Positions 19,848-63,228 of a stretch of DNA of 64,000 nt are shown here, piece by piece. Made by a program: the position numbers and the translations under genes. Source of the DNA: Marsupella aquatica (Eukaryota; Plantae; Marchantiophyta); contig OZ316894.1 of NCBI GenBank assembly GCA_973895155.1, forward strand, positions 1 through 64,000, given 5' to 3'. Below the pieces are notes generated by a model. It did no database searches. It worked only from the letters and a program-made list of their open reading frames with translations, and had not been told where the DNA came from. Positions within the stretch are counted from its first letter, which is position 1. Every line of letters begins with the position of its first letter.

Positions 19848-19850
19848 CTT

Positions 19851-22434: not shown

Positions 22435-23132
22435 CAAGGGAAACTAGGTTCTCATTGTGTGTAAATTAAGGCTTCAAGAAAAAATGACTAGTCTTGAGGG
22501 CTATAGTTCAATTTTTATTGATCATTTATCTGAGGTTTTGTCCTTCTTCTAGATTGCAGGATGTTGTGTATCTATAGTGAGAAATAATTATATCTCGTCA
22601 TTGAGTTTGATGACCTGGACTTCAAGAGGCATGGACTTCTCCCCACTTTTGAAATTAGATTCTGGTGGGTGCAATAGGTCCAATTTATATGTGTGGTGCA
22701 ACGTTACATTGAAAAACCTAAATTGGTGCTTCTACTACTAGAGCAAGGTTGAGGTGAGTCGGGGAGTTGGAGTTTGTATCTAATCTTTGCAATTCATATT
22801 TCAATGAGATATGTGTAGACACATCCACCGTGTATTTTCTAAAAGTTTTATTCTTCAAAAATCCAAAAAATGACATTTCCACAACCCACTCAAGTAAGTA
22901 ACATAATTTCTATTTTTTTCAATAATTTTTTTAAAAATTATTAATATAATAGACATTGTGGATTTAAGTAATTAAAAAATATTATATTATTACAAGTTTA
23001 TATTAATTTTTAATTAAAATTACTATTGATAATAAATATTTACTATATTTAATAGTGTAACAGTTTTATTTAAAAAGTTTGGAAAACAATTTGATTAGTA
23101 CTGACACAAAAATGAAATTGACAATTTTGCAG

Positions 23133-24509
23133 ATGCTCCATAAACGAAGGGAGAGGAGAAAAAATGAAAATAAATTTCATGAATATGGCGCCGAATTTTC
23201 TATCATAACATTTTGTTCAATATGGGATTATCTAAGCAAATTATGTGAATCTAAACAACAATTTATTTTATATTGGATTTTAAAAAATGAAAATATTTTT
23301 GTATATTTTGTTACACACATTTTACAAATAAATGTGTCCAATTTTTCAAGAGCTAAATTTTTGAATGGGTATAACAACTGCAGAAGTGCAATTCCACCAA
23401 TTCTCCCTCTTCAAACACTTCAACAAACCGAGAAAATCTTTCATCATCATCAACAGAGACAAAAATTGCCTCCACTATTGAAAAAATTCATGGGAAAATT
23501 TCACATCCTTAACCTATCCCAACTCCGTACCTTACAAGTAGAGAGGGTAGCTTCTTGTAAAGTTGACAATACATTCTCTTCAACACAAGTAGAAGTGCAA
23601 CAAATATCAAAATCACAACTGAAAAAATTGACTGGAGTGATAATGGGAAATTGGAAGGAAGACATGACTAAAACCAATCATAGTAATCTTACATTCACAT
23701 TTGAGCGTTATCCATCAAATTTTCTAGTGATAGAGAAATCTGAAAATATTGTTTACTTTTACGACAAGTCAGGGAAAAAGCCTTGGCTTGTAGCAATGCT
23801 CATGCACCAACAAATATTGGGAGTGACAACATTACAATTCATTCGAAAACTTTTGAGTGCATTGTTTGTTGCTCATTCTCCATTTCAAAGAGGCGAGGGG
23901 AAAAAAGCTTTTGACAGCTTCATGACAGGATATGGTCCTTGGAATAGCAGTTACATGGGTGGCCGTTTGACTTATTACACACACCAGAAGAAGATGAATA
24001 CCATTTTCGATGATTGCCTTGATGTCAAAGATTTTGAGAAGTGGATCGATAAATATTCACATATTGAACTTATGGATATTATATTGGGCCTTTATATGTG
24101 GTGGTGCCCAGAGATGATAGAGTGTTTTTTGGAATACTCTCATCCATACTTACTATCATCTGATCGTGACAAACATCATGGAAGTGAAGAGCAGATAGGG
24201 GAGAATGTTAGACCTAGTACTTACCAATTATATATAAGTGAGGATTATTGTGTGCAAACACATGCTGATGATGATGCAACTGACTTCACCTTAGCGTATG
24301 CTAGTCATCCTGACCATTTCCTTTCAGCAATCGATTTTGTAATTCCAGAGTATGGAATTAGATTGCCAATTAGAGATGGAAATCTATTTGCATTTCGGAG
24401 CGATGTAGTTCATGGTACAGGCTTTAGGATGAAAACATCGAATCCTGCATATGTTGGAGCTATTACCGTGAATAAAAACCTCAGCAGACTGATGCAAAAA
24501 TTACATTAA
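23133..24509 (+). CDS. TET/JBP-like Fe(II)-dependent dioxygenase (458 aa from ATG 23133), apparently intact
   Basis: DSBH motifs: FMTGYGPW...YY; THADDD (HxD); FVIPEYGIRLPIRDGNLFAFRSDVVHGTG (distal His). A TTTTGCAG acceptor lies immediately before the ATG. Confidence 0.7.
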   Translation: MLHKRRERRKNENKFHEYGAEFSIITFCSIWDYLSKLCESKQQFILYWILKNENIFVYFVTHILQINVSNFSRAKFLNGYNNCRSAIPPILPLQTLQQTEKIFHHHQQRQKLPPLLKKFMGKFHILNLSQLRTLQVERVASCKVDNTFSSTQVEVQQISKSQLKKLTGVIMGNWKEDMTKTNHSNLTFTFERYPSNFLVIEKSENIVYFYDKSGKKPWLVAMLMHQQILGVTTLQFIRKLLSALFVAHSPFQRGEGKKAFDSFMTGYGPWNSSYMGGRLTYYTHQKKMNTIFDDCLDVKDFEKWIDKYSHIELMDIILGLYMWWCPEMIECFLEYSHPYLLSSDRDKHHGSEEQIGENVRPSTYQLYISEDYCVQTHADDDATDFTLAYASHPDHFLSAIDFVIPEYGIRLPIRDGNLFAFRSDVVHGTGFRMKTSNPAYVGAITVNKNLSRLMQKLH

Positions 24510-34536: not shown

Positions 34537-35217
34537 ATGGCATGTAACAAGCAGAAGGCCAAGAAGCCTAAGACGGAGGTGAGCAACACACAGGTGTCTT
34601 GCACAGATTGTGAGAATTTCTCCAAGAGTCAAGTGTACCAGAAGGCAGCTCATTGTTGTGCCATTTGTGATGATGGTGGGGGCTTGGTTATCTGTGATGG
34701 CCCATGCACGAGACATTTCCACCTAAACCCTGAGTCTAACCTTGCTGTAGAGAACAATTGTCCAGGGGTGGGGCTCCCCTCTGCACACAAGGGAGCCTGG
34801 ATGTGCACTGATTGTGTAGAGAAGCAAGCTAAGTGTGCACAGTGTGGAAAGTTGGGGTCTTATGAGACCTTTGCTGATGCCGGACTAGTTGTTAGGAAAT
34901 GCCCTGACAGATTTTGCATAAGATTTTATTGTTTGTCATGTTTGCCTACTCATGCCACAGTCTGCCCACTTCATACATGCAAGGCATGTGGTGAGCATGA
35001 TGATGAGTATTGGACAGACATAGTCCATTGTGTTAGATGTCCCACAATGTGGCATTTTCATTGTTTGAAGGACCTTCAAGCAGAAGGCTATGCTTGTGAC
35101 AGAGAAATCTATGATCACTCTGCACATGGCGTTGATCGATGGATCTTTTACTGTCATCGCCATCCGATTGATCCTACTTTGCATACTCCTGTCAGAGATC
35201 ACATATCTTGGCTTTGA
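34537..35217 (+). CDS. Stand-alone EDM2-type multi-PHD zinc-finger protein (226 aa)
   Basis: CAICDDGG.L..CDGPC.RHFH...C.DC....CAQCGKLGS...C..RFYC..C...CPLHTCKAC...CVRCPT.WH.HCL...IFYCHRHPID..L.TPVRDH matches the EDM2 PHD module, including its TPVRDH tail. Acceptor TTTGTAG just before the ATG. Confidence 0.85.
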   Translation: MACNKQKAKKPKTEVSNTQVSCTDCENFSKSQVYQKAAHCCAICDDGGGLVICDGPCTRHFHLNPESNLAVENNCPGVGLPSAHKGAWMCTDCVEKQAKCAQCGKLGSYETFADAGLVVRKCPDRFCIRFYCLSCLPTHATVCPLHTCKACGEHDDEYWTDIVHCVRCPTMWHFHCLKDLQAEGYACDREIYDHSAHGVDRWIFYCHRHPIDPTLHTPVRDHISWL

Positions 35218-35922: not shown

Positions 35923-37286
35923 ATGGGAAAAAGAAAGCGTAATACTTTAAGAAAAAAAGAATTGGGGGAAGATTTTTCTGTGGATGTATTTGCTACAGTG
36001 TGGGAAGACCTCAAAAAATTAGATACCGTAAAATTGAAGTTTGCACTTCATTGGATTCTATGTCATGACAACATTCTTGAACTTTTTGTTAAAAAAGTTC
36101 TTAAACTAGAGTCTTCAAGATTTTCAAGAACACTATTCTTGAATGGGTATCAAAATTGTAGAAGCCATATCATTCAGATCTTTCCTCCTGAGGTGTTCAT
36201 TGAAATTGATGATATCTATTTTCATCATGGTTTCAGACTAAAATTACCTCAACCTTTGAAAAAATCAATTACTATGTTTTCTAATCTTGACATTAGAAAG
36301 CTTAAACTTTTCAAAAAGAAAGAGATAATCTTTGTAGAAATGGAGGAACTTATGCTAAAGTTGAAGTAGACGTTCAACGTATTTCCTCTTCAAAACTAAA
36401 AACACTTACTGGTGTAATTTTAGGTGATTGGGATCAAACTACAACAACATTTACCTCTGATCCAAACTTTATTTTCTTAAAATTTCCATCAGACCTCATT
36501 ATCGTAGAAGAAAAGAAAGGATTTACCTATCTTTTTGATAGGTCTGGAGTCAAACCATATTTGATAGCAATGATATTCCATCAAGATATCCTATCACCTG
36601 ATTCAATGGTCTTCATTCGAAGATTATTAGAATAATTACATGCTGCCCATCATGTTATCCAAAGAGGGAAAGGAAAAAGATCATGGGAAAGTAAGATGAC
36701 AGGGTTTGGTCCTTTTCATAATCCTTACAAAAAAGATCAAAGTTGTGTATCTTTTTATACTCATGAACAAAAGATAAAGACATTCTTCAATCAAGATTAT
36801 CCCGATGCAGCCAATTTTGAAGACATGGTAGATAAATATTCTCATCGAGAGTTAATCGACATTATTCTTGGACTCTACATGTGGTTATGTCCACAAATGT
36901 TAGACAGCTTTTTAGATTATTCTCATCCTTACTTATGTTCAAATGATTATAAGATGAACATATTTGAGAAAGCACTAAAATGTAAAGGTCCTAGTGCTTA
37001 TCAATTATATATTAGTAAAGATTATTGTGTAGAAACTCATGCTGATCATGATACAGCAGAATTTACTTTATGTTATGTTAGTCATCCTGATGCCAAGATT
37101 TCTCCTGGAAACTTTGTTATTCCAGAGTATGGAATATTATTACCTATTAGAGATGGTAATTTATTTTCATTTCGTAGTGACATTATCCATGGCACAGGAT
37201 ATAGAATTCCAACATCAAATTCTATATATGTAGGAGCTGTTACCATAAACAAAAAATTAGATAGACTTTTACAAAGAAAACATTAA
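35923..37286 (+). pseudogene. Second TET/JBP-like dioxygenase, disrupted
   Basis: Clear paralog of 23133-24509 (DKYSH.EL.DIILGLYMW.CP; THADHD; FVIPEYGILLPIRDGNLFSFRSDIIHGTG). Frameshift at ~36330 and in-frame TAA at 36633-36635. Confidence 0.8.
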
Positions 37287-39845: not shown

Positions 39846-39954
39846 GATGACTCAAACAGAATAAGTGCTCCTCAGTGCTTCAATCAGGTCCATTCATACT
39901 CCAGGGAATAAACGCCCCTTCAAATCTTATATACATGAAGACGTTGCAAATCTG

Positions 39955-43920: not shown

Positions 43921-44531
43921 TAAGATGCACGGGCATTGGGCAGGGTGAATCTTGTCAGAAGTTCACATTTGTTAGACTAGAACCATTGGGATGCACAAGC
44001 TTTGAGGTCTCCTAAGCAATCACCAGTGCCTTTGATTTTGTCCCTAAACTAAGCAAAGTTCTCTTGTAGCATGTTAAGGGGAGCCCTCTACCTCTAAACA
44101 ATGAGATCCTAAACTAATTTCACTTGAGACATCTCTAGGTACGTAAATAGACAAACACTCATCAGGGAGGTCCAATTCTCAATTTCAGAGACAGTAGACA
44201 TAGAAGTAGGCCCTATGGAGATAGATGAAATCAATAGAACTGAGAAACTAGTAGGGAGCAGGAAAACTACTCATACACAAATAGTCGCTTCCAAGTTGAA
44301 ATTCCAAGTTTTAGAATAGAAAGAAAAGTGACTCTTCTATGGTAATGATGGATAGAAACCAAACAGAGATAAATAATAAGAAAAAAAACAACTAATGCAA
44401 AGATAAATTGAATTTAGGGTGAAATGAATACAATGGGCATCATCATATATACGGGCATATATATCTCACAGCTTTGTTCATTAGAATCCCCTGGGAACTC
44501 CACATGTAGAGATTTTGACTTTGATTCTTAT

Positions 44532-47500
44532 CTAACTGTAATTGTAATCAGTAAACATATCAAAGTGAATTCGCTCCGAGGTCGTGTTGTCCCTTTGATC
44601 AAGTGCAGCATATCGAGCTTCCCGGTCTTCATCTACTTGCTCTTGTCTTGCATGACACTGAGCCCATCTTCTCTTACTCATGTCATTCCTAAATGCCATT
44701 TGTCTCTCCTCTCTCTGTCCGGGGGTTTCCTCGACCATAATACCTTCCTCATTGTACAGTTTACACACACCAGGTCCTCGCTTGTCTGAAAGTTGTAATT
44801 CATCATCAATGTCCCCTTCTTCTAGGGATTGAGTAATGAGGTAGGACTTACTGACACCTGCAGCACTTCCCCATCTTAACATAGGCAGCTCACCTTTCAG
44901 AAACCCAGCTGCCACCATCAAATTGTACATCCTAGCAGCCAAAGGCCTTGCTCGACTAAATAATTTCCACAAATCTAGACCACCATCCTCCATCTCTCCA
45001 GTAACTGAGATGCGGACATCTGCTTTCTTGCCTGACCTTCCCACAACTTCGTATAATGTTCTTGTGAAGCAGTACCATTTGAAATACCGAAGATCCTTGA
45101 GCATGTTGTTGTATGTTTCAATGTGATGGACACTCCACAACCATTTCTCGATCTGCTCCAAAAAACTTATCTGCTGATTTGTCCTGTAACTAGGTGTCAT
45201 TAGTATCCGGATACTTGGATGGTGCTGCCAGATAGAAAAGTAAGTGGGGGTCGCTTCGTACATAACAGCTATTCCATCCTGTCCTTCTATTTGATCTCCC
45301 TCTTGCACTTGGTAATCCTGTGGTGGATCATGATATCCCCAAAGCAAAGCGGGACCAAAGTACTTCCCAATATTATAATTATACACACCTAGCTCTAACC
45401 GTGTAATAACTACTTCCGTGGGAGTCACTGCTTCCCAATAACTACTTTTCTCCAAGTGAACCAAAGATACATCTTCGGGGTTAAAGGGGTATACATCATT
45501 TCTAAAGTAACCCCCTTGACGAGCCACCACCGCTGGGTCACGCCTCAATTCATAAAAGAACCTCATTGCCAAGTGACTAAGCTCAGGTGCAATTGGTAGA
45601 TTGAAACTCATCCAATCATCAGATACTACTATGTCAGAGGTGAAAAATGGGTTGAATGCGACAGTAACCCCGTCCCTCTCCATCTTCTTCCACTGGGCAG
45701 CCTCCAAAAATGTGATGAGTCGGGGAAGTGTATACTTCCCACAATTGATCCGTACTTCCAGAGCAGCCCACGTTTTCAATATCAAGGGCAACAACTCATA
45801 TAACTTACTATAAACATCTAGACAACATTTTCTCTGGTTATCCCTCTGTGCTAATCCCTCATGAACCATATTAGCCATTGCTTTAAGTGCAATAAAAGTT
45901 TCATTTTGAGGATGCTCCCTTTCTAATTCCGACAACATGAATTGAGCTATTCGACTGTTAGCCCGACCTCCTAATCTATAAGACAAATCCTCAGGTAATT
46001 GTACATTAATATGTCCAGACCACTCAAAAAAAGGCAGCATGAATCTAATCCTTATAGGGACTTCATCCCAAATCTGATCCCAATCTCCAGGTCTGATATC
46101 CCTTTTATTTACCTCTGCACTGGCCAAAATTATCCGAAGGGTTTCTAGTCCGAGGGCTTCATCAACCTCAATCGGATGCCAACCATCACTCTGCTCTCCA
46201 GACATTGTGGTCCAGTGGTTGATGCTGATCTTTTTCAGGATCTCAACTCGTTGTTTGTTTATTGGGTCTTTCAAAGCCCCATCCAATAACTTGGTGGCTT
46301 TCTTTGCTTCATCTCTCAACTCTTGCACTCGAAGTTCCCAAGCATCATAAGCATGTCGTGGTATCCGAACATCCTTAGAATTACATTGCACCAACTCTCG
46401 CTGGGCTATTTCACCCAACCACTTCTTTCTCTCCTTCTCTCTTTGCTTGGCACTTAATTCTAATGTTCGGATATACTCCACCCTCTCCAGGTTTTGCTGC
46501 TCCAACTTTTGTAACGCTTCAAAAGTCAGTGTGAGCTGCTGGGTAGTTTCTTTTAGCGACTTCTCTATCACTGTTATCATCTGAGAGGTATGACCTGCAC
46601 ATTGAGAGTGAGTATAGCGCACTTTAGCAAATTCATCTTCTAATTGCAGCCACTTCTCCTTTTCTTCTTCATATTGGCCTGAAGCCTCCTTGCTCGCTTT
46701 TTGGGCCTCCTTCAATTGTGCATTCAACTCTCTGCCCTCTTCTTCAAAGGCAGCTACATACCGACTCAATTCTTCTGCCTTTGTGGTATTCTGAGCGTGT
46801 TGCTTCTCTGCTTCCTTCCGGACAGTTGTCACTTCCTCTATCAGCAAAGTAATCCTTGCCTCTCTTTCTTGGGACTTCATCTCCTGCTCATGCAACATTT
46901 GTTCTCGTATCTCCACCTTCTCATTGAGGAGTCTCACCATCTCCTTGTTTTCCTTCAGCAAACTCTCCAACTTCTCAATCCTCTCTTGGAGCTTAAGGTT
47001 GGTGTTGGCGCTTCTGAACAGATCTTCTTCCTGCTGCTTTGCCTTTTCTCTCTCTCTTACCCCAGTTTCTGCTTCGAGTGCACAAATGTGGGCCAACCCG
47101 CACACTTCCTTGGCTTGATGTAACCACAAACGCTTGTCACTTCCTACAGGGAAGGGTCGATTAATAAACTTCATCCTCTGCTCAAAGGAGGTGAGCTCAG
47201 ACAGAACAACATTTGATAACAACTCTGTCAACACTGGTTGATGGTATACATAATCAGATTGGGCAGTGGATGTCATAGCTTCTTCTTCCTCTTCGACCGG
47301 GATTATCACTCTCCTTTTCTTTCTTTTCAAGGACTTAACACACACATTCCCCTTTATCCTCAATGTACGTAATCCTTGTGCGCCTTCTTCATCAGAATTG
47401 TCCACTTCATCTGCACTGCTTGAGACCAGGCCCGAGACCAGGGATCCCTTTGGGGCATAGAGTCTCGGATTATCTTCTTCCCCATCCTCGCTCTCCGACT

Positions 47501-48271
47501 CCTCCTTTTCTTCTTCCTCCTGGTTTGCCTCCTCTCGCTCCTCTGAATCGCTGTCCTGCAAGGAGATTATTGTGACCGCGGTTGTGATCCTATCGGCAGT
47601 GAGGGCGTGGTCCATCACTACGCTTAATACATATGCACAAATTGACGGAAACAATGGTAGCCCCTTCCTGGTTATAACACTTGCAAGGTTGCGCTTCCAT
47701 ATCAGCAATGGGTGAAGAGTTCCATCTAATACTCTCTTGGCAACTGATAGTTGCTCTGGCGTTACATAATGGTACCCACTCTTGAGGATTACCCATTTAG
47801 TAAAGAACTCCACATACTTGCGGACCTCTTGGTTTGTCATAACGCGCCATATTGGACCTTCTTCTCATGCTGGAGCTCTCCTCCTTGTTTTAGGAAGGCA
47901 CTCATCTCTCTTCCCGTAAGTGCCTCAATTGGATAGTCAGCTGGTAGGCTGTCTGGGGCAAAAATCCCAAACAAAGTCGCTAATTCCTTGTTGGGGATGC
48001 GGTAGGCTTGTGCTCTGTATGTGATAAACACTCCAGTATCTGCAAAATTGACATCCACAATATCTTTGTAAAGCTGACAAGCACGATCAATTGATACAAA
48101 CCTATCAATTCGGACAAGCCCATAGCATCGAGCCCTTTCAAATATCTCTCTGTATTCTTCAATGAAAGCCACCTCAGAGATTGAGTTCCTCAATCTTTCT
48201 TCTGGAGTTGATCGAGGTTGTTTATTTTTGGCTGGAGGGACCTCTACTCGGGTTTGATTTGGAGATGTCAT
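44532..48271 (-). CDS. Retroelement-type accessory protein: 144-aa and 1102-aa ORFs overlapping by ATGA (probable frameshifted single gene) with acidic tract and long coiled coil
   Basis: Long intronless ORFs adjacent to gypsy integrase; E/K/Q-rich heptads; no catalytic motif recognised. Confidence 0.55.
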
Positions 48272-50737
48272 TGTGAAATCTTTACAAATGAAGGTAGTTC
48301 AGTCAACTTATCCACTTCGCAAACATTCGGAACATCCTTCCTTCCTAAAGATTTCAATGGGGCGCTCGCACTGTGAAAACTCTAATATACTTGGCAAACA
48401 TGTTGGTCTCATAGATTGAAGTGGTTTCAATGATGGCACGGTCAATTGAATAGCGGACGGTGGTCTTAGTGTCTTAGTGCCTTTCCTTTTATGGTGTTTG
48501 AATCCTCTTCCTCCTACAACTTGGAGCAATAGCTTCCCTCGTTCCACTTCCTTTTGTATCCAAACAATGATGACTCTTCTTCTCTTGAATGGAGACTGAG
48601 GGTACAATCCCTCTTGTGATGATATTCGCTTGAATGGAGAGGGTACAATCCTGACACTGTTCATTTTCTTGTCGGCCACCCTTTTGTCCTATATCTCATG
48701 AAGTTGGGTACACCCCACACAACATACAAACCGTTAAAAGTTTCTGACAATTAACCTAGTTGTACTTAGACAATACTTTAATATATAAATCATGACTTGT
48801 TAATCATTAATTATGCTTTATTATCTCTCTTTGCAACACTATTAGGGGGTCACACATTACACACAACTTATAAAAAAGGAGATTGAACTAAAAAAGAACA
48901 AACTATATGACCAAAGGATAGACTCTCAATCTAGGGGATCTTTCCGCAAGCCACCTAATCTAGAATAGTTTTCATTACTTAGATAGTTTGCACTACTATA
49001 TATTATTCACAACTATATTATATCTCAAATATATGTTTCTTGAAGAAGTGTGTTATAATTCCACTCCTCTCAATTAGTTGTTTATTTTAATATATGTACT
49101 AGAAAGCTTAATTTCTACTCAATTAGTAGTTTAATGTATGCTAGTAGAACATTATGGACCATATTAGACTCTCAAAACTCAAGCTAAAAGCCCTTATTTT
49201 CCTGGTCATATATTATGCAGAAGATTGCAAAAATCACATCACTTTGGATGAGGTAATTAATTTCTCCTATATTTTCACTAAAATTTGTAAAATTATCTTA
49301 TCATAACAATCTACGATACCATCAAAATTTTGACCATAAATAATAGCCTTTGACAACTTGAGTTAGAGTTAATATTACATACATTAATTATACTCAAACA
49401 AGGCCTAAAAAATGTAACTAGGGGGCCCACGAACTAATTCCAAATACTCTTTTAGCTCCAATGCACTATCTTTAAAATTTGAAATATTATGGTATCTCCT
49501 CAAAACAACAAGCTGTAAGACTCTAATGCATATACTGAAATCTCTTGTTTAGACTCTATTAGGGCATCAAAGCCCAGCCGTAACTCAGTTATAGCTTAGG
49601 ACATAAATCACTTTTATGGCCTGGAAGTAACTTCTTATGGGGTACCTACAAAGGTGCCCCGCAAGTCTCATACATCATAAAGTTTTATGTCCGTAGGGTG
49701 AAGACCATATGTTTTAAGAGAAGTCGCCCCGGCACTAGTCACTAGTGCAAAGCCTGCCCGGCACAAGTGGCCCCTACGATGATCCCAGTGATGGAATGAG
49801 GGGTGAACTGAGTGTATTTTCCCCACTCACGAATTTGGGCAGCTCCTCTGAAATCCTTGATGAAATCCATCTGGGCATCACACTTAGGTCCACATTCATC
49901 AATATCGTTGTTGTTTGTCCTGAATTCGTAGTCAATGCACTATTGGGGTGAGGAAGAGATTCCCTCCAATCTTATTTAATGATGAGAGCCGCATAGGTGA
50001 CGGTGAGCAAGCTCACCGACATGGCTGCTACGTCGAGCTGTGAATTGTGGTGATGGATGGTTGTCTCCCAAAATTGTTCTACAGGCACTCTCGAGCAAGG
50101 AATTCTTCTAATTGTTTGCTACTTGTTCTTCCATATTACATGAATTTAGTTTTGACAAAGAACAAACAGTTCTGAAACCGAGATTCTACGGGGAATAGAA
50201 ATTGTTTGCTCTTGGATGTCCTTTGCTCATTTTAACAGACTTTCAAACAATGGATTTGATTTTAGACGTATGTTGGTGACAAATCCCCACATGTAACAAT
50301 CTATTGCACATCACATGAAACTAAAATGCTAATCTCTGTGCAAGCGCAATTGAACAACTACTGTTTTTTACTCATCTCTACTTCAATGTTGGTGTCTCTA
50401 TTAGCTTTGAGTGCTTAATTTCAGAGTCTCTCTTAGCTTTGAGTGCAGAATTGTGACTACGCCTGTCGAAATAGTTTCGAGGCGCTCAATTGTCTCAGAA
50501 GTTATTAAATTCCTAGGTTCAACATAGTGGCAAAAGTTACAACGATGCGCCGTCCAAATTTCTGTTGTTCTGATTCTGGCCAACGCTTTCTATTCTGGAT
50601 TTGATTGCCACTACATTTACTTTGTTGCTAAGACCAAAAATCTCTCTTGAAGACTCATTGACAGCCTACGATGGTGATGACACCTGCAACTTTGTCACCA
50701 TCCTTAAGATTCTTTTCTACCCCATAACTAGTTCTTA

Positions 50738-51518: not shown

Positions 51519-54500
51519 TTAATCCTTTAAATCTTTTGTTTGAAGGTTTCGCCACTTGTCTTTCAGATCAATCTGTGTCAAAGTCAATAAAACATGATAG
51601 ATGAGCATGCAATTTGTCTTGTGTGCAAGGGTAAATACAGTAATACAAAAAGCAGGATATAACCATAGAAGACTTACTTCAGACCGGTCAATGAAGTGTG
51701 CACCCTCGGCAGCAAGAATTCGACTCCACTTGCCTGGTCCAAACCTGAAATTAACCTTGGCTTAGAAAACCTCTTGTTCTTAGAGAAAAACACCAATTAA
51801 TACCAGCTAGGTAAGATATTACGTCAATGCATTTTGATTGATAAGTCATAGGTTCACTACTTGCCTACGGACTGCCTGTTTGAGACAATTTGTTTCCTCT
51901 TTAGACCACCTTTTAGTTGCCCTACGAACACGTATTAGACCATTGGGGCCTTCTTTCATGACTGCCCGGGTGATCAATTTGGAATTTTGTATTCCAATAC
52001 ACCCTTGATGCAGCCTCAACCTCTTAGATGACGGGCTGGACGTATCCTCCTTCCCTGTGCCCTGCAAAGACATCCAATTTGTAATACTCCAGCAAGGATT
52101 GCAAACATTACAAAATACAGTACATCTTCCATACTGTACAAGATAGATGTTGTTGTCACCAATGATTAAAAACAAGAAGTTTCCTACGGACCACCTCACC
52201 TTGGCACTCGAAGTTGCTAGATTGCCCTCCTCTGCTTTGTCTTTGGATTGGAACGGGGTGATTAGGGACCGAGAAGGAGGATTTAGCAAATCTATAATTC
52301 GTTTTCTCCCTAAGTTCTTCCCCATATCACAAATGCCTTTGTAATTCTCACTCTGTGGGGCTGGAAGCTCAACTAATCTCTGTTCTTCCGGATGAATTAG
52401 GTGTTGGACTTCATTTGATGATTGTTGCATTTTGCTAGTAGTAATTCCTCTGTTGAGCATATTAACCTCTGTGCTCACCTCTGTCACAAAAAAAACACCA
52501 CATTAGAGACTTCAATTCTCCATCAACAGCACATACAAAGACCTAGGAGTCTGAAACTACTCTATACACTATCAATCTGAACTAATCAATGCTAGTTCTA
52601 GTGCAATTTTGGTCAAACTGTAAGACTACATATGAGTTGAACTATGACATTGGTGAGCACTACATACCATACACTGGTTGGGAGGATGCCTGCTTTGGCA
52701 ACAATACAGGCGCCATGATCTGCTGGTTGGCCACCTCCAAAGGAGCTCCTTCATTCTCATCTATCAAATTCTCTTTACCTGTTCCAATCTCCACCCGCCT
52801 TTTTCTATAGTGATTCAATTTAGACTGCAAATACAACCATCCAATTAACGGAAATGATATTTCTCCACCACAATATGTATATTCACAATGACTTGCAGCA
52901 AACAACAAATCAGTCCCACCTTTTACCAAATCTGATAGCTAGTGAGAGAAGACAAGGCCCAAACATTGTTAAAACAATGCATCTGTCTCCTAGCCTGTGA
53001 GTGCGGGACAAAACCAATGGAAAAATCCCAAAAATTTTGTGCACCACTCCATCGAGCGGTGCAAATTAAACCAACTATTTAATAAGACATTTAAGAAAAC
53101 AATCCTTTGGAGGAGGAGGGGAAGGGAGAGAATCATGAGCTAAGTTACCCAAGGTTGATCCAAATAAATACCTGAAGCTCAACTCGGACTTCCTCGGCAA
53201 CACTTTCATACTTGTCTTTCAAAGTATCCACATCCCTACGAACTGCGGCCAAGGTGGTCACCATCATTTCATTCCTCTGTAGGAGTAGCTCCAACTTGAC
53301 ACCTATTGTGTTGTTTGCCTCTACTTGCATCCTCAAGTTGGTCAGTATTGTTTCGTTCCTCTCTGTCTGTAACTCCAAGGTGGTTGTCATCTTCTCATTC
53401 CAGTCTCTCTGGCGCTCTTTCTCTATTTTCAACTCACCTACAACCTCCATCAAGCACAGGCATGATGTACAACAAGATCTGACTGTTTTTGAAGCTTCTG
53501 AAATGCTCAAGGGGAATACATTGTTTAGTGTGAATATGTCAGAGTGCTCCAGCAACTCCGTACCAGTTGTTGTCAACTCGATACCAAATTTTGTCTTCAA
53601 TTTTCCCTGTTCTCTATCCTCTGTTCCAGCCGTTGCTTCCGCTTCGCCCAATGTCTTCCCTGATATTTCATGTTCTTTACCCCCCGACAGAGGTTTTGTC
53701 TCTTGAAGACTCAATGTCTTCATGGACGTTGCATGATCTTCATGGATTATCCCAACCTTTGTCACCATCTCATTGTCACAAGCTCGATTGAACAAAGAAC
53801 CATCTTGGTGTCCGTTCACAAAAGAACCATCTTGCTGACCTTGCGGCTCTGCTCCACTAGTTGAGAATAGCCTGAGAAGTCCTCCACTGCTACATGGATC
53901 ACCCTCATGCACACTAGAAACAACAGTTCCTTTGGCATGTCCTGACATTGCATCATCGTCGTTCACAATTTGCAGATGCATTGTGAGATGTTTTTGTCCT
54001 GTGCAGTTCTCCTCCATCCCGTGGTTTTCCACTCCATGATGCTCCACACCCACTTGAGTAGATGTTTTCCAATGGAATACTTGTGGCCTTGGCAAAGACA
54101 CAATTGAAGGGGACTTCTCACTCAACAGAATTTGCAGATGGGATCCAAAATTGTAAGTGCAAGTCATGTTACCTTCGGAGATTTGTTTCCGGGCTCTGCA
54201 GAGGAGGTCGATCAGTCTCCCGCCAAGATATTCTCCCCAATTCTTCCTACTACTTGTTTCTTCAACTTGCTTTATCTGGCACAAAGACACATCGGCCTTG
54301 CTCCCCTTAAAGTGAAGAGCCCCCAATTGAAACTCTAGCCTCTCTCTGATTAGGGAATCTTTGCAATATTGCAATGAGTAAGAACCATTGCTGTTCCTTT
54401 TAATCCCTGCGAATGACCTTGGATTATATCGAACTGCTTTTTGCTCAAATGGCTCCCCTGACCCTTGCAACTTGAATGTCTTCTTGATAGAATCCAAACT

Positions 54501-54632
54501 CAAGTCTATTCTTCCCCCACAAACCCATGTTTCAGATTGTTCACTGTCAAAGTTCCAGATGAAATCTATCATGTCAGACTTAGAATGACTTAGTGTCCCA
54601 ACGAACTCCCAAAACAAAATCTGCAAGCCCAT
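51519..54632 (-). CDS. Spliced TRF-like (telobox) Myb protein with N-terminal retroelement-accessory-like domain and coiled coil
   Basis: Exons 54632-53172, 52824-52668, 52480-52200, 52061-51865 (GC donor), 51744-51678 and 51572-51519 join in frame. They give ...RWSKEETNCLKQAVRRFGPGKWSRILAAEGAHFIDRSEIDLKDKWRNLQ, where LKDKWRNL is the telobox. Confidence 0.8.
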
Positions 54633-56498: not shown

Positions 56499-56930
56499 CA
56501 TGTACAAATATTGAGGCGAGACCAAGGAAAGAACTGTACACTCCTTGGGACAAATCAATAGTAGATTTATGAAGGTGAGTACCTTAACATCAAAATTCCC
56601 CCTTTCTTCCCACCTAGTACATGTAAAATATTCATAAATCTAATGATAAAAATTACAACTTACAACTGCATTTCGGTACTCAGATCTGAAATGGTTCGTG
56701 TACTATTTGACCGGAATTATAATTTTTACTGAATTAGAATTAAAATCTTGAAAAAATTTATGTGGATTTGTTTGCTACAGTGTGGGAAGATCTAAAAAAA
56801 TTGACACCATAAAATTGAAGTTTACACTTTATTGGATTCTTTATTATGAAATATTCTTGAACTTTTTGTTAGAAAAGTTCTTAAACTAAAGTCCTCAAGG
56901 TTTTGAAGGACACTGTTTTTGAATGGCTAT
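56499..56930 (+). pseudogene. Second truncated, decayed 5' fragment of the dioxygenase gene
   Basis: Highly similar to ~9066-9500 (TGTACAAATATTGAGGCGAGACCAAGGAAAGAACTGTACACTCCTTGGGAC...) and homologous to 35620-36160. Confidence 0.8.
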
Positions 56931-56991
56931 CAAAGATGTCACCTTTTGGATGTGGTTACAATTATCCCTATTTTCATTGCTCCCCGTGTGA

Positions 56992-57405
56992 ATGAGGGTA
57001 CTCTTATCTCCTGAGGGTACCCTTGTGCTTGAGGGTACTCTTATCAGTGAGGGTACTCTTATCAGCGAGGGTACTCTTATCAATGGGTACGCTTATCAAT
57101 AATGGTACTTTGATCAATAAGGGTACCCTTATCAATGAGGATACTCTTATCTCCTGAGGGTACCCTTGCGTATGAGGGTACTCTTATCAATGAGGGTACT
57201 CTTATATCAGCAAGAGTACTCTTATCAATGAGGATACTCTTATATCAGCAAGAGTACTCTTATCAATTAATGGGTACACTTATCAACAATGGTACTTTGA
57301 TAATGAGGGTACCCTTATCAGTGAGGGTATTCTTATCTCCTAAGGGTACCCTTGTGTTGGGCCTTGTGCATGAGGGTACTCTTATTAATGAGGGTAATTT
57401 TATTA
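56992..57405. repeat. Second array of quasi-palindromic 18-bp units
   Basis: Same consensus as 9555-9952; contains the perfect palindrome ATAAGGGTACCCTTAT at ~57117-57132. Confidence 0.9.
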
Positions 57406-57853
57406 GTCATAGCAAGCAACAAAGCAGGCAGGGAACCCCATGAAGGCGCCCCGCACCGGCAGAAGGACTCCGAACATACTGAAAAGACCCTAAACCTCAC
57501 TAGACCAACATTTTGGGTATTGCATGGACAAATACTAGCCGAAGTACATGCCTAAATTTACCTGCTCTGTATTAGTTCCCTAAACCAGGGGTGATTTTTT
57601 TCATCAAATCCATACATTGTATCCTAGTTTTTTTCACACATGATGTAAACCTACATAATGTGAAAGTGGGAGAGAAGACTTATGATTTGATACAATCTTC
57701 ATTTAACTATAGTACAATATTCACTAATCATCAGTATATATGGTAAGCTCCAATTCCTCCATATAGTATGTAGACAAAAATTGAAGCAATCGATGAAATA
57801 ATTAACAATTTCATTACACTTGATATTAATTACAGTGCTTCCTTACTTCTTCC

Positions 57854-60800
57854 TCACCAGTACTCAGGATATTTTGTTTTCACAATAGCCGCAGCAAACA
57901 AAACAAAGTTATTCACTACTTTCCCTGTACCTATCTGCATGAACCAAGTAGCAAGTTCTTCATCACTTTTCTCTCGAATTTCCGGAAATTCCTTGAACAA
58001 TTCTGTTTGTATCCAAGAAACCCTCCAGCCTTGCCACACAAAATGTCGAAGACGCTCGCCTGTTCTATCATTGCACTGATCACCATATGGTCCTTTATGA
58101 ATACACATTCCAGTGACAACTACAGTATGTTGAAAGTGACACTTAAAACAAGTCCATGCATTTTGAGGGAATGTGTTCTTGCAGGTCCGGGCCTGGTGAG
58201 ATCCTAGACATCTAAAACACAATGACCGCAATATAGGACAGTTGACAGCATTGTGTACTTCTTGCTCCCTTGATTCAGGACACTGACAAATTAAGCATTG
58301 ACTTCCATCACCCGCAAAAGTTCTGATGATACGAAGATCCCTTTTATCACTCTCAAAAGATTGGCTGTGTGCCATAGCCCTTAGCCTTGCAACCACAGGC
58401 TCTGCTTCATGTACCCCTTGTATAATTGGGGTCATCGGCAAGGTGTTTCCTTGTCGTCTTGGCATGGGAGTGGCTGGGGGTTGCGTAGGAGTTTCATATG
58501 TTGACTCATCCGAACCCCCTCTTCCTGGAATTCCCATTGAAGATGATGCTACCTCATGTGGTGGAATTGAGGCTGTTCTACAAGGAATGTCTTGTGTGAA
58601 CACCTCAAAGTCGACTATGTCCACACCTGGGCTGCACATCACAGATGCTTGGGAACACAAGTCACACAAACTAGAGAATGGAATAAGATGACATACTTGA
58701 GGTTTTCCATCGACCTGGTCATGGAGCCCAAACCGACGACATGATGTCTTGTTCTCTATCCATTTGTGTGAAGCCGCTGTGGTTGAATCAGTGCGTTCGG
58801 CCATCTTGCGATAAGCAAGGTTGGTCACCACATAACTCATCGCCGGGAGCCCATCACGTCCACCTCGTCCAGATTCTTGGTGGAAGTGTTCCAGAGACCT
58901 GAAACTACCACGATGAATGACAAGCTTAACCCATTTATAATTGTATCCACTACTAATCACTCCGGTGGCCACCATGATCTTACAAGCACCTGACGTCCAA
59001 GAACTCAATGAAGCCCTCTTCACCGCTATGTCCAGATGCGCATGCACATACACACATGACATTTCTTTCCCTTGGAGGATTCTTGTAGTTGATTCCACCT
59101 CCTCGCGGGTTAGACAAAATACTAGGGCCCTCTCTTCTGGCAAAGAATATGCTCTCCAATCACGCAGAAGACTCACTATTTCTTGATCCATCATGTTATG
59201 GCCAACCTCAACAACGGCATACCTGATGTTGGGTCTCACAGTAGGACAACGAATCCACACCATCTCTGTAGCTAACATCCGCTCAATATCAACTTGATTC
59301 TTGGGTGCTAGGGATGCAGTTAACCCTATGATTTGGCAATTAATTTCCATGAGGCCAACCAACTTTTTCATTGACGGTCGAAAGTCAGATAACAGGAGGT
59401 GCACCTCGTCGTAGACAATGGAATGCAAGGAACCATTGCATTTCAACTGCTTTGCCAAGATAATGAATAGTTTGGATTCTGCAGCAATCTCCACAGCCAC
59501 AAAAATGATTGAAGGAGGTCTTGCCACTTCGACTGCACCATCCTTATACACAACACAACTAATATTTGCTTGTTTGCATTCCTCTACGTGGCCCTCTACT
59601 AGGATAGTGAGTGGAACGATCACAATCACCGTCCTATTCTGTCCCATGGTGGAAGGTGCCATGAACACCAATGATTTTCCAGACCCAGTGGGTAGTATGG
59701 CAACAAAGTCCACCACATTATCTATGGATAGAGCAACTGCTGTTGCTTGTTCCGACGATTTCCACTGTTGATGACCAAGCCTTCTTAAGGCTTGACAAGC
59801 TCCAGTAGTCCTATTGAGACAAACTTGTAGCAGGGGATCACTTTCTCCACTTGCCAATAATGTCTGATGGATGTTTGAGTGGAAAACTGTAAACCGCCTC
59901 CTTTTGGGAATTTGCCTCACCTCATATTCAACACCTCCAACGGGTCCCAAAAAGTCAAAAGGTGCAGTCGACATTACCTCGGGCCTCTGTGACCCACCGA
60001 GGCCAACCAACTTGTGCCACAATCGTGACACCAATACACACCCTCTTAAAATATGTCCATCCATGCCTCTAGGATCCTTTGTACTACGAGCATAGTGATG
60101 GCCGACCGTAGCTGTTTCATGACCACCTGCTACATCCACAAGGTCTTCTTGTAAATGGGCCTTACAAGCTCGTATATTCTCACTCCAATGTGCTGCCACA
60201 TGCCGGTACTTTGCAATCCCAAATGGAATGCCACAGTGCTTTTGGAAAGCATCTAATACACTGGCAGAAAGGTCTACTCCCGTCAGCCTCTTGTCCATGG
60301 CCACAAACCAACAATCCAGGTACATTGCTGCAACTTCCGGACCCCACAAAATATTCGCCACGAAAGATTGTACTGGGCGAACTAGACATAACAATTTCAC
60401 AAATAGGTGGCTTTGATTGTCAGGAATGAACCGAGCAGTGAAGTTTATAGGTTTCCCAGCATTTGCACATTTGTGGTAGGATTGATAAACCATCAGCGTA
60501 TCAGATAACCAAATGAATGCTCTATCCCCAGTGGCAGTGTTGCGAATCAATAGGCTCGAGTATTCTTCCCCTCTTGCAGGTAATCCAGAACAGAAATGCA
60601 GAAGTAGGTTCAATAGCCTCTGTAGCTTGGAACATGCAACCATCCACCTGTGGAGTGCAGGAATGTTCCAAATAACTCCATTTACATTGTCCACTCGTAG
60701 GATGAAATGTGCCATCATCATAGTATTACTGAACATGTGGTTCAATAGATCCTTTCCATGTTGTTGGAACTCTGGATTTCGGGCGTCTATGAGAAAAGAA

Positions 60801-62812
60801 TAATGCACTTCGTCTGTCTGGACAGCATCATGAATGCAGCCCTTGGTACTCACCAAATTGAGTATCCATTCAGATTTGAGACCGAGAAGAACATCATGGT
60901 TGAGTGTTGTTGTCGCTTCTTCAACAATGGCACGGATCATATCCCTGAACGCATTCAATGTGATAATATCACCGTCAATTGAGCATGTTGTTTGTGTATC
61001 GTCCATGTGTATGAGATTTGGTCGAGCATGGGTGCCTCGATTAATTGTTTTTGCCAGTCGCATGTACTGCCGAACTTGAGTAATCGGCGTGTCCAATGCC
61101 ACATCGCTCACGTATTTCTCCAGGATGTTTACTTCATTCCCAGGTAGGCCACGTGGGTTTGGATGCCAAAGAGCTTGTGAGAGTTCCATCAGGATTGTAC
61201 ATCTTGCCCAGTAGTGAAGTATTGCCAATATTTTGGTGATTTTCCCAATTTTGCAAAATGCATACCCTGTGGATTGGGAACCCAGCCCGTCACTCTTTAG
61301 AGAGTGGAGGATAAAGAACCGAGTGAGCAAACAATCCGCCGGTGAACGAGCATACAACAGCTCCGGAATTTTTGGAGTCCAGAGAAGAAGTAGTACTCGA
61401 TGGATATTTGTGAGATCAATATCACCTTCTTCTGCAGGCCGCGCCTCACTTGGTTGGCCTAATTGTGCCAATAATTGTTGCAGGGCACCTTTTAGATCCG
61501 GCCTATCTGTGTATATAACACAATGTTGAGGCCGAGAATCATAAGTACAAGAACGAACGAGGCAAAGAAGAAGGGAAACCATTCCAGCACAGTATTGTGG
61601 AACAGTGTTTTTCTCTTGTAGTCCACCCAATCCCCTTGTGACATCGGCATTTGGAGTCGGCTTCATCACCATTCTTTGCACCCTATAATCTAAATTTCCA
61701 CTAAGAATATTTCTTGTGCATGTCATGTACGCACGGACCACAGTGCCCAAGTACGATAGTGAAGACCTAGGGTCGGCGGGCCTTGGGGGTTCCATCTCAG
61801 ATTGCACTTCAACAAATGGCACACCTTCAGGCATGAACTGGGATGCAATCTCATGCCACCTTGATACCCTTAGCCACGGCGACAATTCCCTCACTGGAGG
61901 TGCAAGATCTGTCTTTAATGACTGTAGATGAGCTTGAAAAACTTTTGCGACTGCACCTCTCGTACTCTGAGCTACTGCATCGTCCGCAAGGTACACATTG
62001 CCATGGTCCACTCCATAGAATTTGCGGCCGACTCCCTTGAAGAGGGCTTGCACTTGACATGGAGTAGCAATGTCCTTGAAACCAAGGTGGTTGTGTTTCA
62101 TACATCGGTGATTTGCCATCGTCCGCTGTGATCTACAAAAGAAGATACATCTCGAGCAAGAGAATCCCCAATGAATGAGGACGCCCGGAACTGGAGACAA
62201 CAATTCTGCAATTGGATTGATTGTGTATGGTAGTAGGGACGCATCATTTGTACGTGTGAACAACACACCCTGCAACAAAACCGACAATTGCTCTGGTGTT
62301 GGATTCGTGATTGAATTTTGTGTTGCAACTCTCACCCTGCCCATGTTCCTTCGATGACTTCCAACATGATGGATAATGCTACTTCCTTCCGTGTGCTGAA
62401 GGGCTATATGGCATTGCAAGCATACTAGAAGAACAAGGTTGTTGTGGTGAACAATGCAAAGCTTTGCATTTCTCAACATGTCTGGTGTTGCTAACAGGTC
62501 ATGATCTAGGATAGTGGTGGGGACTTGGTTGACAATTGGATCGTCTACATCCATGAACGGGTCAACTCCTACTGCTTCATTGTGTTTCCTTTTGTAGTGA
62601 AGACGTAAACTATCACTACGGGGATAGGACGAGGAACATGTGGCCACAGGGCAATGGAATCGACCATCCTCTTCTTTCTCAATGATCTGGGTTGTGCCAT
62701 TGTTGAGCTGCAATTGGTAAGTAGAACGGTGAACTGAGCGGGAATGGGAACTGCGAGAGTTTGCTGACTGAAATTCTTCCCCACACTGACTACATCCAAA
62801 TACTGTCACCAT
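57854..62812 (-). CDS. Fungal-type telomere-linked-helicase-like protein: C2H2 fingers, DUF3505-like Zn domain, tyrosine-recombinase-like domain, RecQ helicase and C-terminal Zn knuckles (1652 aa, intronless)
   Basis: CSQC..HSRSVH and CPVATC..HYKRKH; LVCLQC/CSRC..NH..KH/CQVQALF; SGLPARGEE..YRH..AGGH..HYA; ILPTGSGKS, DEVH, TAS, RPNIRY, QESGRGGRDG, CRR..L..CDLC. Confidence 0.85.
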   Translation of the reverse strand: MVTVFGCSQCGEEFQSANSRSSHSRSVHRSTYQLQLNNGTTQIIEKEEDGRFHCPVATCSSSYPRSDSLRLHYKRKHNEAVGVDPFMDVDDPIVNQVPTTILDHDLLATPDMLRNAKLCIVHHNNLVLLVCLQCHIALQHTEGSSIIHHVGSHRRNMGRVRVATQNSITNPTPEQLSVLLQGVLFTRTNDASLLPYTINPIAELLSPVPGVLIHWGFSCSRCIFFCRSQRTMANHRCMKHNHLGFKDIATPCQVQALFKGVGRKFYGVDHGNVYLADDAVAQSTRGAVAKVFQAHLQSLKTDLAPPVRELSPWLRVSRWHEIASQFMPEGVPFVEVQSEMEPPRPADPRSSLSYLGTVVRAYMTCTRNILSGNLDYRVQRMVMKPTPNADVTRGLGGLQEKNTVPQYCAGMVSLLLCLVRSCTYDSRPQHCVIYTDRPDLKGALQQLLAQLGQPSEARPAEEGDIDLTNIHRVLLLLWTPKIPELLYARSPADCLLTRFFILHSLKSDGLGSQSTGYAFCKIGKITKILAILHYWARCTILMELSQALWHPNPRGLPGNEVNILEKYVSDVALDTPITQVRQYMRLAKTINRGTHARPNLIHMDDTQTTCSIDGDIITLNAFRDMIRAIVEEATTTLNHDVLLGLKSEWILNLVSTKGCIHDAVQTDEVHYSFLIDARNPEFQQHGKDLLNHMFSNTMMMAHFILRVDNVNGVIWNIPALHRWMVACSKLQRLLNLLLHFCSGLPARGEEYSSLLIRNTATGDRAFIWLSDTLMVYQSYHKCANAGKPINFTARFIPDNQSHLFVKLLCLVRPVQSFVANILWGPEVAAMYLDCWFVAMDKRLTGVDLSASVLDAFQKHCGIPFGIAKYRHVAAHWSENIRACKAHLQEDLVDVAGGHETATVGHHYARSTKDPRGMDGHILRGCVLVSRLWHKLVGLGGSQRPEVMSTAPFDFLGPVGGVEYEVRQIPKRRRFTVFHSNIHQTLLASGESDPLLQVCLNRTTGACQALRRLGHQQWKSSEQATAVALSIDNVVDFVAILPTGSGKSLVFMAPSTMGQNRTVIVIVPLTILVEGHVEECKQANISCVVYKDGAVEVARPPSIIFVAVEIAAESKLFIILAKQLKCNGSLHSIVYDEVHLLLSDFRPSMKKLVGLMEINCQIIGLTASLAPKNQVDIERMLATEMVWIRCPTVRPNIRYAVVEVGHNMMDQEIVSLLRDWRAYSLPEERALVFCLTREEVESTTRILQGKEMSCVYVHAHLDIAVKRASLSSWTSGACKIMVATGVISSGYNYKWVKLVIHRGSFRSLEHFHQESGRGGRDGLPAMSYVVTNLAYRKMAERTDSTTAASHKWIENKTSCRRFGLHDQVDGKPQVCHLIPFSSLCDLCSQASVMCSPGVDIVDFEVFTQDIPCRTASIPPHEVASSSMGIPGRGGSDESTYETPTQPPATPMPRRQGNTLPMTPIIQGVHEAEPVVARLRAMAHSQSFESDKRDLRIIRTFAGDGSQCLICQCPESREQEVHNAVNCPILRSLCFRCLGSHQARTCKNTFPQNAWTCFKCHFQHTVVVTGMCIHKGPYGDQCNDRTGERLRHFVWQGWRVSWIQTELFKEFPEIREKSDEELATWFMQIGTGKVVNNFVLFAAAIVKTKYPEYW

Positions 62813-63228
62813 CCTGCATGAAAAACAACAAAATTAGCTGATGCCATATTTTGCTCTGAAATTATATAGAGCTCTTCACATCAGATTTTCCCGTGGAGCT
62901 CCACAATGGACTCTAAAGTCAATCTCAATTGGCCAACTATCGGACTAGTATTTTTCATTTTCCATTACCTATGTCCCAAGCTTGATCTGCACCATGAATG
63001 TGCAATCTAACCCAAAGCTTCACTGACATAGAAGTTGGTTGAGCATGTTCACACATTCAACGTACTTTGTGAGCACAGACACAAATTAAACGAATTCAAT
63101 CCGAATCTTCTCCAAAACCTGGTCAGTTGGATCATATTTTCACTATCTTGGGAAGTGAACTTGTACCATGCACTCTCTCGATGCCCTTGGGGCTAATAAT
63201 TACTCCAATGCCTCTAAAGCCACCAAAC

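What the first reader, a model, noticed from the sequence alone, without database searches (positions are those of the whole stretch)
22435..63228. Candidate giant mobile element led by a recombinase-helicase and carrying an epigenetic anti-silencing kit
Seen: within ~40 kb lie a YR-like/RecQ gene, a telobox Myb gene, an EDM2-type PHD gene and two TET/JBP-like genes. No housekeeping gene lies among them; they are separated by tandem repeats, decayed ORFs and nested LTR elements. Established: TET/JBP enzymes modify 5mC or T and travel with transposons in fungi; EDM2 PHDs read H3K9me-containing marks and act in anti-silencing; telobox Mybs bind telomeric repeats; tyrosine recombinases mobilise Cryptons and fungal Starships, where the recombinase is the first gene and cargo lies downstream. 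Inference: this is a Starship-like plant element whose lead gene (62812->57854) points into cargo that removes or reads silencing marks and may target telomeric repeats. I could not identify its termini or target site.
Basis: partly seen in the sequence, partly recalled or inferred. Interest (0 to 1): 0.92.

Follow-up and report, generated by a model that had tools for sequence, protein, structure and literature searches.

The report
Plant recombinase-helicase beside anti-silencing-like genes
This repeat-rich stretch of a likely moss- or liverwort-type plant holds an unbroken gene built like the chromosome-end helicases of fungi, whose middle part is predicted to be a DNA cut-and-rejoin enzyme, beside genes that resemble erasers and readers of silencing marks, but these likely arrived separately rather than as one giant jumping element.

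Summary
The genes are real; one giant element is not shown. The 1652-aa ORF is built like a telomere-linked helicase (C2H2, OrsD/DUF3505, RecQ). Its middle domain is predicted to fold like Xer/Cre (pLDDT 89, Z up to 10.6), with R-K-R-H-Y kept in 102-109 of 110 aligned sequences. It is not a DUF3435 Starship captain. The scan noted this fusion before on other DNA, including mosses. The two TET/JBP-like genes are old paralogues; one is broken, and the family lacks the usual 2-oxoglutarate arginine. The PHD gene is an isolated module. The six-exon Myb gene is intact and its N-terminus resembles DUF1985/PMD anti-silencing domains (a lead). Against a recombinase-led element: a TET-derived piece with an 18-bp array recurs 13 kb outside the proposed boundary, host-gene fragments lie inside and outside, and nothing upstream of the recombinase recurs. 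Two similarly aged repeat pairs frame 18.9-57.4 kb and 2.2-10 kb, both excluding the recombinase. No genome or reads were available, so linkage and empty sites are untested. Odds of any single large cargo element: about 0.3.

The parts
57854..62812 (-). Intact intronless ORF, 1652 aa: C2H2 fingers, OrsD/DUF3505 (aa 122-241), tyrosine-recombinase-type domain, RecQ helicase, Cys/His-rich tail. Telomere-linked-helicase (TLH) architecture. A splice-acceptor-like tract sits just before the ATG, so a 5' exon may lie upstream.
59993..61150 (-). Tyrosine-recombinase-type domain (aa ~555-940); candidate catalytic R747, K781, R870, H898, Y907
   Evidence: AlphaFold2 pLDDT 89.2, pTM 0.87; best matches Xer/Cre, Z 10.6, rmsd 3.0, 162 aligned; residues kept in 108, 109, 107, 102, 104 of 110 rows
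58613..59779 (-). RecQ-type helicase core with intact Walker A (aa 1041), DEVH (aa 1135) and motif VI (aa 1312)
   Evidence: RecQ structures E 3.5e-24; motifs
56501..57410 (+). TET-derived 5' piece followed by an array of ~18-bp near-palindromic units; 444 bp beyond the recombinase stop, opposite strand
9012..9955 (+). Second copy of the TET-derived piece plus array, outside the proposed element; 25 mismatches in 472 aligned bases to the 56.5-kb copy
51519..54632 (-). Six-exon gene, 738 aa, open frame (four GT-AG introns, one GC-AG): DUF1985/PMD-like N-terminus (lead), coiled coil, C-terminal single Myb ending in the telobox-type motif LKDKWRN (label recalled)
   Evidence: gene model; Atlas look-alikes DUF1985 (13% of members, score 0.93) and PMD (20%, 0.91); no Pfam hit
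39955..48298 (-). Gypsy-type remnant: integrase 42946-43848 and long unassigned ORFs (828, 1110, 153 aa); no RT and no LTR pair found
35923..37286 (+). TET/JBP-like gene 2, broken by one frameshift and one stop; its upstream intron region is shared with the two derived pieces
34537..35217 (+). Intronless stand-alone PHD cassette, 226 aa, NSD/EDM2-type; CpG observed/expected 0.19
   Evidence: three NSD-type PHD Pfam hits below cut-off, E 6e-5 to 1e-3; NSD2 E 2.3e-5
23112..24509 (+). TET/JBP-like gene 1, open frame of 465 aa, HxD...H, 35% GC
18943..22425 (+). Mosaic block with phospholipase-C and P450 fragments; duplicated at 2224-4694
   Evidence: 53 mismatches in 1447 aligned bases
2224..4694 (+). 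Second copy of the mosaic block
63229..64000 (+). Copia-type insertion 416 bp upstream of the recombinase ATG: TG...CA LTR-like stretch 63229-63398, primer-site-like motif, gag-like frame from ~63750 (labels recalled; no Pfam hit on the 90-aa piece)
   Evidence: sequence

Best explanation
The block is likely a patchwork of separately arrived mobile DNA: an unbroken telomere-linked-helicase-type gene, whose middle domain is predicted to be a tyrosine recombinase, sits beside TET-like, PHD and Myb genes that likely came on other elements and were then locally duplicated. Shown: architecture, conserved R-K-R-H-Y residues, repeats and breaks. Predicted: the Xer/Cre fold. Inferred: Y907 would nick and rejoin DNA through a phosphotyrosine link, the RecQ motor would move the junction, and the zinc fingers would pick the site, so a unit of roughly 5.5-7 kb would excise or copy itself like a Crypton. 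Also inferred: the TET-like, PHD and DUF1985/PMD-Myb genes are transposon-borne counter-silencing factors gathered in one silenced, gene-poor region.
For: Fold and residues: (the 21 best entries and the 25 chains at Z>=5 are recombinases, topoisomerase IB or their relatives). Family: 1346 representatives at E<=0.001; 31 of 33 fetched proteins of >=1100 aa also carry the RecQ region; named ones are from the liverwort Calypogeia fissa (two divergent members) and from fungi. Separate history: TET-family DNA occurs four times in the window, once 13 kb outside the boundary; the two full genes are old paralogues under purifying selection (dS ~2.0, dN 0.31, 213 codons); host fragments (PPR, topoisomerase II, phospholipase C, P450, NAD kinase, VSR) lie on both sides of the boundary; DNA upstream of the recombinase has no repeat elsewhere; repeat pairs at 3.7% and 5.3% divergence frame units without the recombinase. 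In fungi TET/JBP genes ride 11 DNA-transposon lineages, and that paper names no Crypton or Starship (PMC12730594).
Against: Four copies of a rare TET-like family (3 database homologues) in 48 kb fit local amplification inside one large unit as well as dispersal. Five chromatin-related genes side by side is a notable concentration. No other transposase was found among the 142 + 20 ORFs scanned that could have carried the TET genes. Recombinase-type elements leave only short end repeats, so failing to see termini in one copy is weak. Mobility of the recombinase-helicase unit itself is not shown.
Confidence: 0.55

Rival explanations
1. One giant element led by the recombinase-helicase, pointing into cargo that counters silencing, with its 5' end hidden by the Copia insertion at 63229 and its far end perhaps further left than 22435.
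For: Intact recombinase gene at one edge pointing inward; no intact housekeeping gene found between it and the SMC2 start at 510; TET-like look-alikes are fungal clusters, as are many recombinase relatives; Myb gene co-oriented with it.
Against: No DUF3435; no termini; TET-derived repeat outside the boundary; the short sister unit at 2.2-10 kb shares nothing with the recombinase or its upstream DNA; the only related locus fetched was 2.7 kb, too short to show cargo.
Confidence: 0.2
2. The chromatin genes are cargo of a different large unit, 18,943 to ~57,430 (38 kb), which has a short sister copy at 2,224 to ~9,955; it would be a gene-capturing (Helitron- or Pack-like) element moved in trans, with the 18-bp array as a subterminal protein-binding site.
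For: Both copies start with the same mosaic block and end with the same TET-piece-plus-array, same order and strand, similar divergence (53/1447 and 25/472 mismatches); captured host fragments inside; TET genes ride Helitron and EnSpm elements in fungi (PMC12730594).
Against: Interiors share no sequence; no terminal inverted repeat or target duplication of 7 bp or more at matching positions; two independent repeats could fall in this order and orientation by chance (about 1 in 12, my estimate); an old local duplication explains it too.
Confidence: 0.15
3. The intact genes are static, domesticated host genes in a locally duplicated region; the recombinase-helicase serves DNA repair or chromosome-end upkeep and does not move.
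For: The Myb gene has regular introns and an open frame; TET paralogues show purifying selection; TLH genes are described in print as telomere-maintenance helicases (bioRxiv 2024.02.27.582403).
Against: Broken and truncated TET copies, gene fragments, CpG depletion (0.19-0.52 in these genes against 0.87 in the SMC2 exon); a fully conserved recombinase active-site set; fragmentary divergent homologues in Calypogeia.
Confidence: 0.1

Closest known systems
Telomere-linked helicases (TLH) of fungi and a choanoflagellate (bioRxiv 2024.02.27.582403; bioRxiv 2023.02.05.527183; passages read)
   Same: N-terminal C2H2 fingers, OrsD/DUF3505, a conserved domain before a RecQ helicase, 1400-1700 aa
   Different: Plant-type host, no telomere array in the window; the conserved domain is here assigned to the tyrosine-recombinase fold, a word absent from the Fusarium TLH preprint
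Starships (PMC10104507, passages read)
   Same: Tyrosine recombinase with Cre-like predicted fold at the edge of a gene-bearing, repeat-rich block
   Different: No DUF3435; RecQ fusion; no direct or inverted end repeats or empty site shown; not a Pezizomycotina host
Cryptons (recalled) and Academ elements with RecQ (PMC3627910, passage read)
   Same: Single-gene recombinase element; RecQ as a transposon accessory enzyme
   Different: Cryptons lack a helicase; Academ uses another transposase type
TET/JBP-carrying DNA transposons of fungi (PMC12730594, first seventh of text plus passages) and algal CMD1 (PMC7854593, passages)
   Same: HxD...H dioxygenase resembling the phage gp2 TET/JBP family, in transposon-rich DNA
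   Different: Land-plant-type host; no linked DDE or HUH transposase found; the 2-oxoglutarate-binding arginine position is not conserved in the alignment
VANC (DUF1985) and plant mobile domain proteins (bioRxiv 2024.09.27.615353, passages); Arabidopsis EDM2 (PMC7529245, PMC3632883, passages)
   Same: DUF1985/PMD-like N-terminus (lead only); atypical PHD repeats
   Different: Fused here to a telobox-type Myb; the PHD cassette lacks EDM2's methyltransferase-like and other domains

Membership tests
Tyrosine recombinase superfamily | Catalytic fold of Xer/Cre/lambda Int | tested here: met
   Predicted model pLDDT 89; Xer 4a8e Z 10.6, rmsd 3.0, 162 aligned; Foldseek alone gave no E<=0.001 though lambda Int ranked first
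Tyrosine recombinase superfamily | Conserved R, K, R, H/W, Y catalytic set | tested here: met
   R747 108, K781 109, R870 107, H898 102, Y907 104 of 110 rows; the position of the HxxR histidine is not conserved
Tyrosine recombinase superfamily | Strand cleavage and recombination activity | not testable with these tools
   Needs an assay
Starship | Captain with DUF3435 | tested here: not met
   No DUF3435 hit for the protein (E<=0.1) or for its domain and 17 homologues (E<=0.05)
Starship | Recombinase is the first gene inside defined ends with short direct repeat and TIR | tested here: inconclusive
   No shared termini in one copy; Copia insertion 416 bp upstream
Starship | Presence/absence against empty sites | not testable with these tools
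   No genome, no reads
Telomere-linked helicase (TLH) | N-terminal C2H2 fingers and RecQ helicase | tested here: met
   Four C2H2-like patterns and intact helicase motifs; RecQ E 3.5e-24; OrsD as in Fusarium subtelomeric helicases
Telomere-linked helicase (TLH) | TLH domain homologous to named TLH proteins | tested here: inconclusive
   None of the 30 proteins looked up was named TLH; assignment rests on architecture
Telomere-linked helicase (TLH) | Adjacent to a telomere, multi-copy | tested here: inconclusive
   Only two 2-unit TTTAGGG stretches, at 6794 and 7183; window ends 1.2 kb upstream of the gene
TET/JBP dioxygenase | HxD...H triad in a TET/JBP-type domain | tested here: met
   Triad in 5 of 5 rows; these five rank 1-5 of 484 sequences with a phage gp2 profile, hhalign 36.6 against 21.8 best of 100 shuffles; Atlas look-alikes 2OG-FeII_Oxy_6 (15% of members) and Tet_JBP (16%), recognition low; no direct Pfam hit
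TET/JBP dioxygenase | Arginine that binds 2-oxoglutarate on the last strand (PMC7854593) | tested here: not met
   Aligned position is V, M or preceded by Y without R in 5 of 5; a conserved R five residues after the distal His might substitute (alignment)
TET/JBP dioxygenase | Oxidises 5mC or T in DNA | not testable with these tools
   Needs an assay
EDM2 | Repeats of atypical PHD fingers | tested here: inconclusive
   NSD-type PHD hits; likeness to EDM2 itself is recalled, no EDM2 sequence was compared
EDM2 | ELP methyltransferase-like and other domains in one protein (PMC7529245) | tested here: not met
   226-aa frame ends right after the PHD cassette; no such domain in neighbouring ORFs
Telobox Myb (TRB/TRFL) | Single Myb with LKDKWRN motif (recalled) | tested here: met
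   Spliced model; DNA binding untested
DUF1985/PMD (VANC-like) | Profile match of the N-terminal domain | tested here: inconclusive
   Atlas look-alikes only; no Pfam hit

The most novel reading that the evidence does not exclude
A land plant carries a giant cargo-bearing element of 38-60 kb, mobilised by a tyrosine-recombinase-RecQ fusion of the telomere-linked-helicase family, that brings its own counter-silencing kit: a new TET/JBP branch with altered co-substrate chemistry, an EDM2-type histone reader, and a VANC/PMD-telobox-Myb protein acting on the element's 18-bp array.
Probability: 0.3. Interest if true: 0.9.

Novelty: new variant of a known kind. Interest (0 to 1): 0.6.

Why it matters
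Telomere-linked helicases have had no assigned function for their signature domain; an unbroken plant copy with a full recombinase residue set is a ready test case for whether they are self-moving elements. A TET/JBP-like family in a land plant would be a new route to DNA base modification in plants, and its missing arginine hints at other chemistry. If the neighbours are cargo, plants would have a counterpart to fungal Starships.

Tried and rejected
No whole genome is held and the sequencing-run search gave no answer, so copy number, linkage, expression and empty sites are open. Single-sequence fold failed (pLDDT 34). Foldseek found nothing at E<=0.001. Related-locus scans: metagenomes gave 1 locus of 2.7 kb from 150 pattern matches; viral contigs gave 0 of 68 for the TET-like family and 0 of 76 for the recombinase. 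TET-like proteins had no significant Pfam, PHROGs, PDB-sequence or phage tblastn hit; no fold was made for them. A telomere-resolvase reading of the palindromic array has little support: TelK scored Z 3.7 against 10.6 for Xer, though a weak match does not exclude it. A tblastx hint of homology between 7.2 and 55.7 kb fell to control level at DNA level (24 against a control maximum of 24). The Myb N-terminus and the Gypsy 828-aa ORF look alike by eye but BLASTP is not significant (E>=0.57). The tree (108 of 110 rows, 2 dropped as too short, quick method) pairs the window protein with one Calypogeia protein but most rows are unnamed, so no transfer direction is claimed. Literature: 0 papers held both 'telomere-linked helicase' and 'tyrosine recombinase'; searches listed none that describe the fusion or a plant Starship by title or abstract start; 0 papers held all five TET/bryophyte terms. 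The library lacks most subscription papers; the 2014 PNAS TET/JBP paper was not held under two ids tried. No supplements were read; Repbase entries in them could bear on novelty.

Full report
Setting. The window starts with the first exon of SMC2 (minus strand, start at 510). The rest is gene-poor and repeat-rich. A PPR fragment, P450 genes, a telobox-type Myb and a closest homologue in the liverwort Calypogeia fissa (49-51% identity) point to a non-seed land plant; this is inference. No genome and no reads were available.

The 1652-aa gene. The frame 62812->57854 is open. Pfam gives OrsD/DUF3505, DEAD and Helicase_C, the PDB gives RecQ at E 3.5e-24, and four C2H2-like patterns and the helicase motifs are intact. 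The middle region has 1346 representative homologues at E<=0.001. Of 33 fetched proteins of 1100 aa or more, 31 also carry the RecQ region. With a 110-row alignment, aa 555-971 fold at pLDDT 89, pTM 0.87. Foldseek gave no significant hit, but structural alignment against 48,161 chains put Xer, Cre, integrases and topoisomerase IB on top (best Z 10.6, rmsd 3.0, 162 residues; same pattern). R747, K781, R870, H898 and Y907 are kept in 108, 109, 107, 102 and 104 of 110 rows. No DUF3435 was hit in this protein or 17 homologues. The architecture matches that described for telomere-linked helicases (bioRxiv 2024.02.27.582403, passages; bioRxiv 2023.02.05.527183, passages); I could not compare with a named TLH sequence. 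The scan's own notes report this fusion on other DNA, including broken moss copies; I tested the fold and residues here independently.

TET-like genes. Gene 1 (23112-24509) is open; gene 2 (35923-37286) has a frameshift and a stop. They have three database homologues, all unnamed, and no Pfam, PHROGs or PDB hit. A profile of 11 phage proteins of the Cooper gp2 family, which PMC12730594 lists as TET/JBP and Pfam hits weakly, ranks the five family members first among 484 sequences; the profile-profile score is 36.6 against at most 21.8 in 100 column shuffles. The Atlas returns fungal 2OG-FeII_Oxy_6 and Tet_JBP clusters as look-alikes, with a low recognition value. The HxD...H triad is present. 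The arginine that binds 2-oxoglutarate in TET2 and NgTET1 (PMC7854593, passages) is absent at the aligned position in 5 of 5, so 5mC oxidation cannot be assumed. The paralogues are old and were under purifying selection (dS ~2.0, dN 0.31).

PHD and Myb. The PHD gene is an intronless 226-aa module with NSD-type fingers. EDM2 has such fingers plus other domains (PMC7529245, PMC3632883, passages); the others are missing here, and likeness to EDM2 itself is recalled. The Myb gene has six exons and an open 738-aa frame. Its first 185 residues resemble DUF1985 and PMD clusters in the Atlas (lead only). DUF1985 is the domain of the transposon anti-silencing protein VANC, and PMD proteins oppose Polycomb at telobox-bearing promoters (bioRxiv 2024.09.27.615353, passages).

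Is it one element? The 5' part of TET gene 2 recurs, joined to an array of ~18-bp units, at 56501-57410 and at 9012-9955, the latter 13 kb outside the proposed boundary. A mosaic block at 18943-22425 recurs at 2224-4694. The two pairs have the same order and strand and similar divergence (25/472 and 53/1447 mismatches), framing a 38-kb unit with TET, PHD, Gypsy and Myb genes and a 7.7-kb unit; their interiors share nothing and neither holds the recombinase. DNA upstream of the recombinase has no counterpart elsewhere, and a Copia-type LTR begins 416 bp before its ATG (labels recalled). Host fragments lie inside (NAD kinase, VSR) and outside (PPR, topoisomerase II, phospholipase C, P450). No telomere array is present. 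Against my reading: four copies of a rare family in 48 kb fit growth inside one large unit, no other transposase was found, recombinase elements leave short ends that one copy cannot reveal, and no homologous locus long enough to test linkage was obtained.

Mechanism. Most likely (0.55) a patchwork. The recombinase-helicase would act as a small self-moving unit: tyrosine attack and rejoining, helicase-driven junction movement, zinc-finger targeting (all inferred from fold and family knowledge). The chromatin genes would be counter-silencing cargo of other elements; in fungi TET/JBP genes ride 11 transposon lineages (PMC12730594, first seventh and passages). Rivals: one recombinase-led giant element (0.2), a separate 38-kb capture element (0.15), static host genes (0.1).

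Novelty. Starships are defined by DUF3435 captains and end repeats (PMC10104507, passages); membership is not met. The recombinase nature of the TLH domain and a TET/JBP-like family in a land plant were not found in print by my searches (listings only unless stated), within a library that lacks most subscription journals. Verdict: new variant of a known kind, interest 0.6; the giant-element reading has probability about 0.3 and would merit 0.9.

Noticed in passing
window 48-510 (-): First exon of SMC2, the only intact housekeeping gene seen; an anchor for synteny tests.
   Followed up: partly
window 13900-15953 (+): Cytochrome P450 gene with an apparent frameshift near 15050 and a missing I-helix stretch; likely a pseudogene. 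A second P450 fragment at 19827-20192.
   Followed up: partly
window 1330-1815: PPR fragment (+) directly followed by a topoisomerase II fragment (-), just upstream of SMC2.
   Followed up: partly
window 10433-12861: Nested tandem duplications of ~850 and ~472 bp, about 2% diverged, with no Pfam hit.
   Followed up: no
window 9546-9955 and 56983-57410: Arrays of near-palindromic ~18-bp units found nowhere else in the window; may be a protein-binding array like those of VANDAL elements (recalled).
   Followed up: partly
window 44532-48298 (-): Long ORFs of 1110 and 153 aa next to the Gypsy integrase with no Pfam family; the 1110-aa one has an acidic tract and coiled coil.
   Followed up: no
window 39166-39239: 35-bp inverted repeat whose motif recurs near 39280-39370 and 42400-42470, flanking the 828-aa ORF.
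   Followed up: no
window 6794-6807 and 7183-7196: Two short interstitial telomere-type repeats of two units each.
   Followed up: partly
window 8790-8911 (+): Exon-like stretch with splice signals just before the TET-derived piece; unassigned.
   Followed up: no
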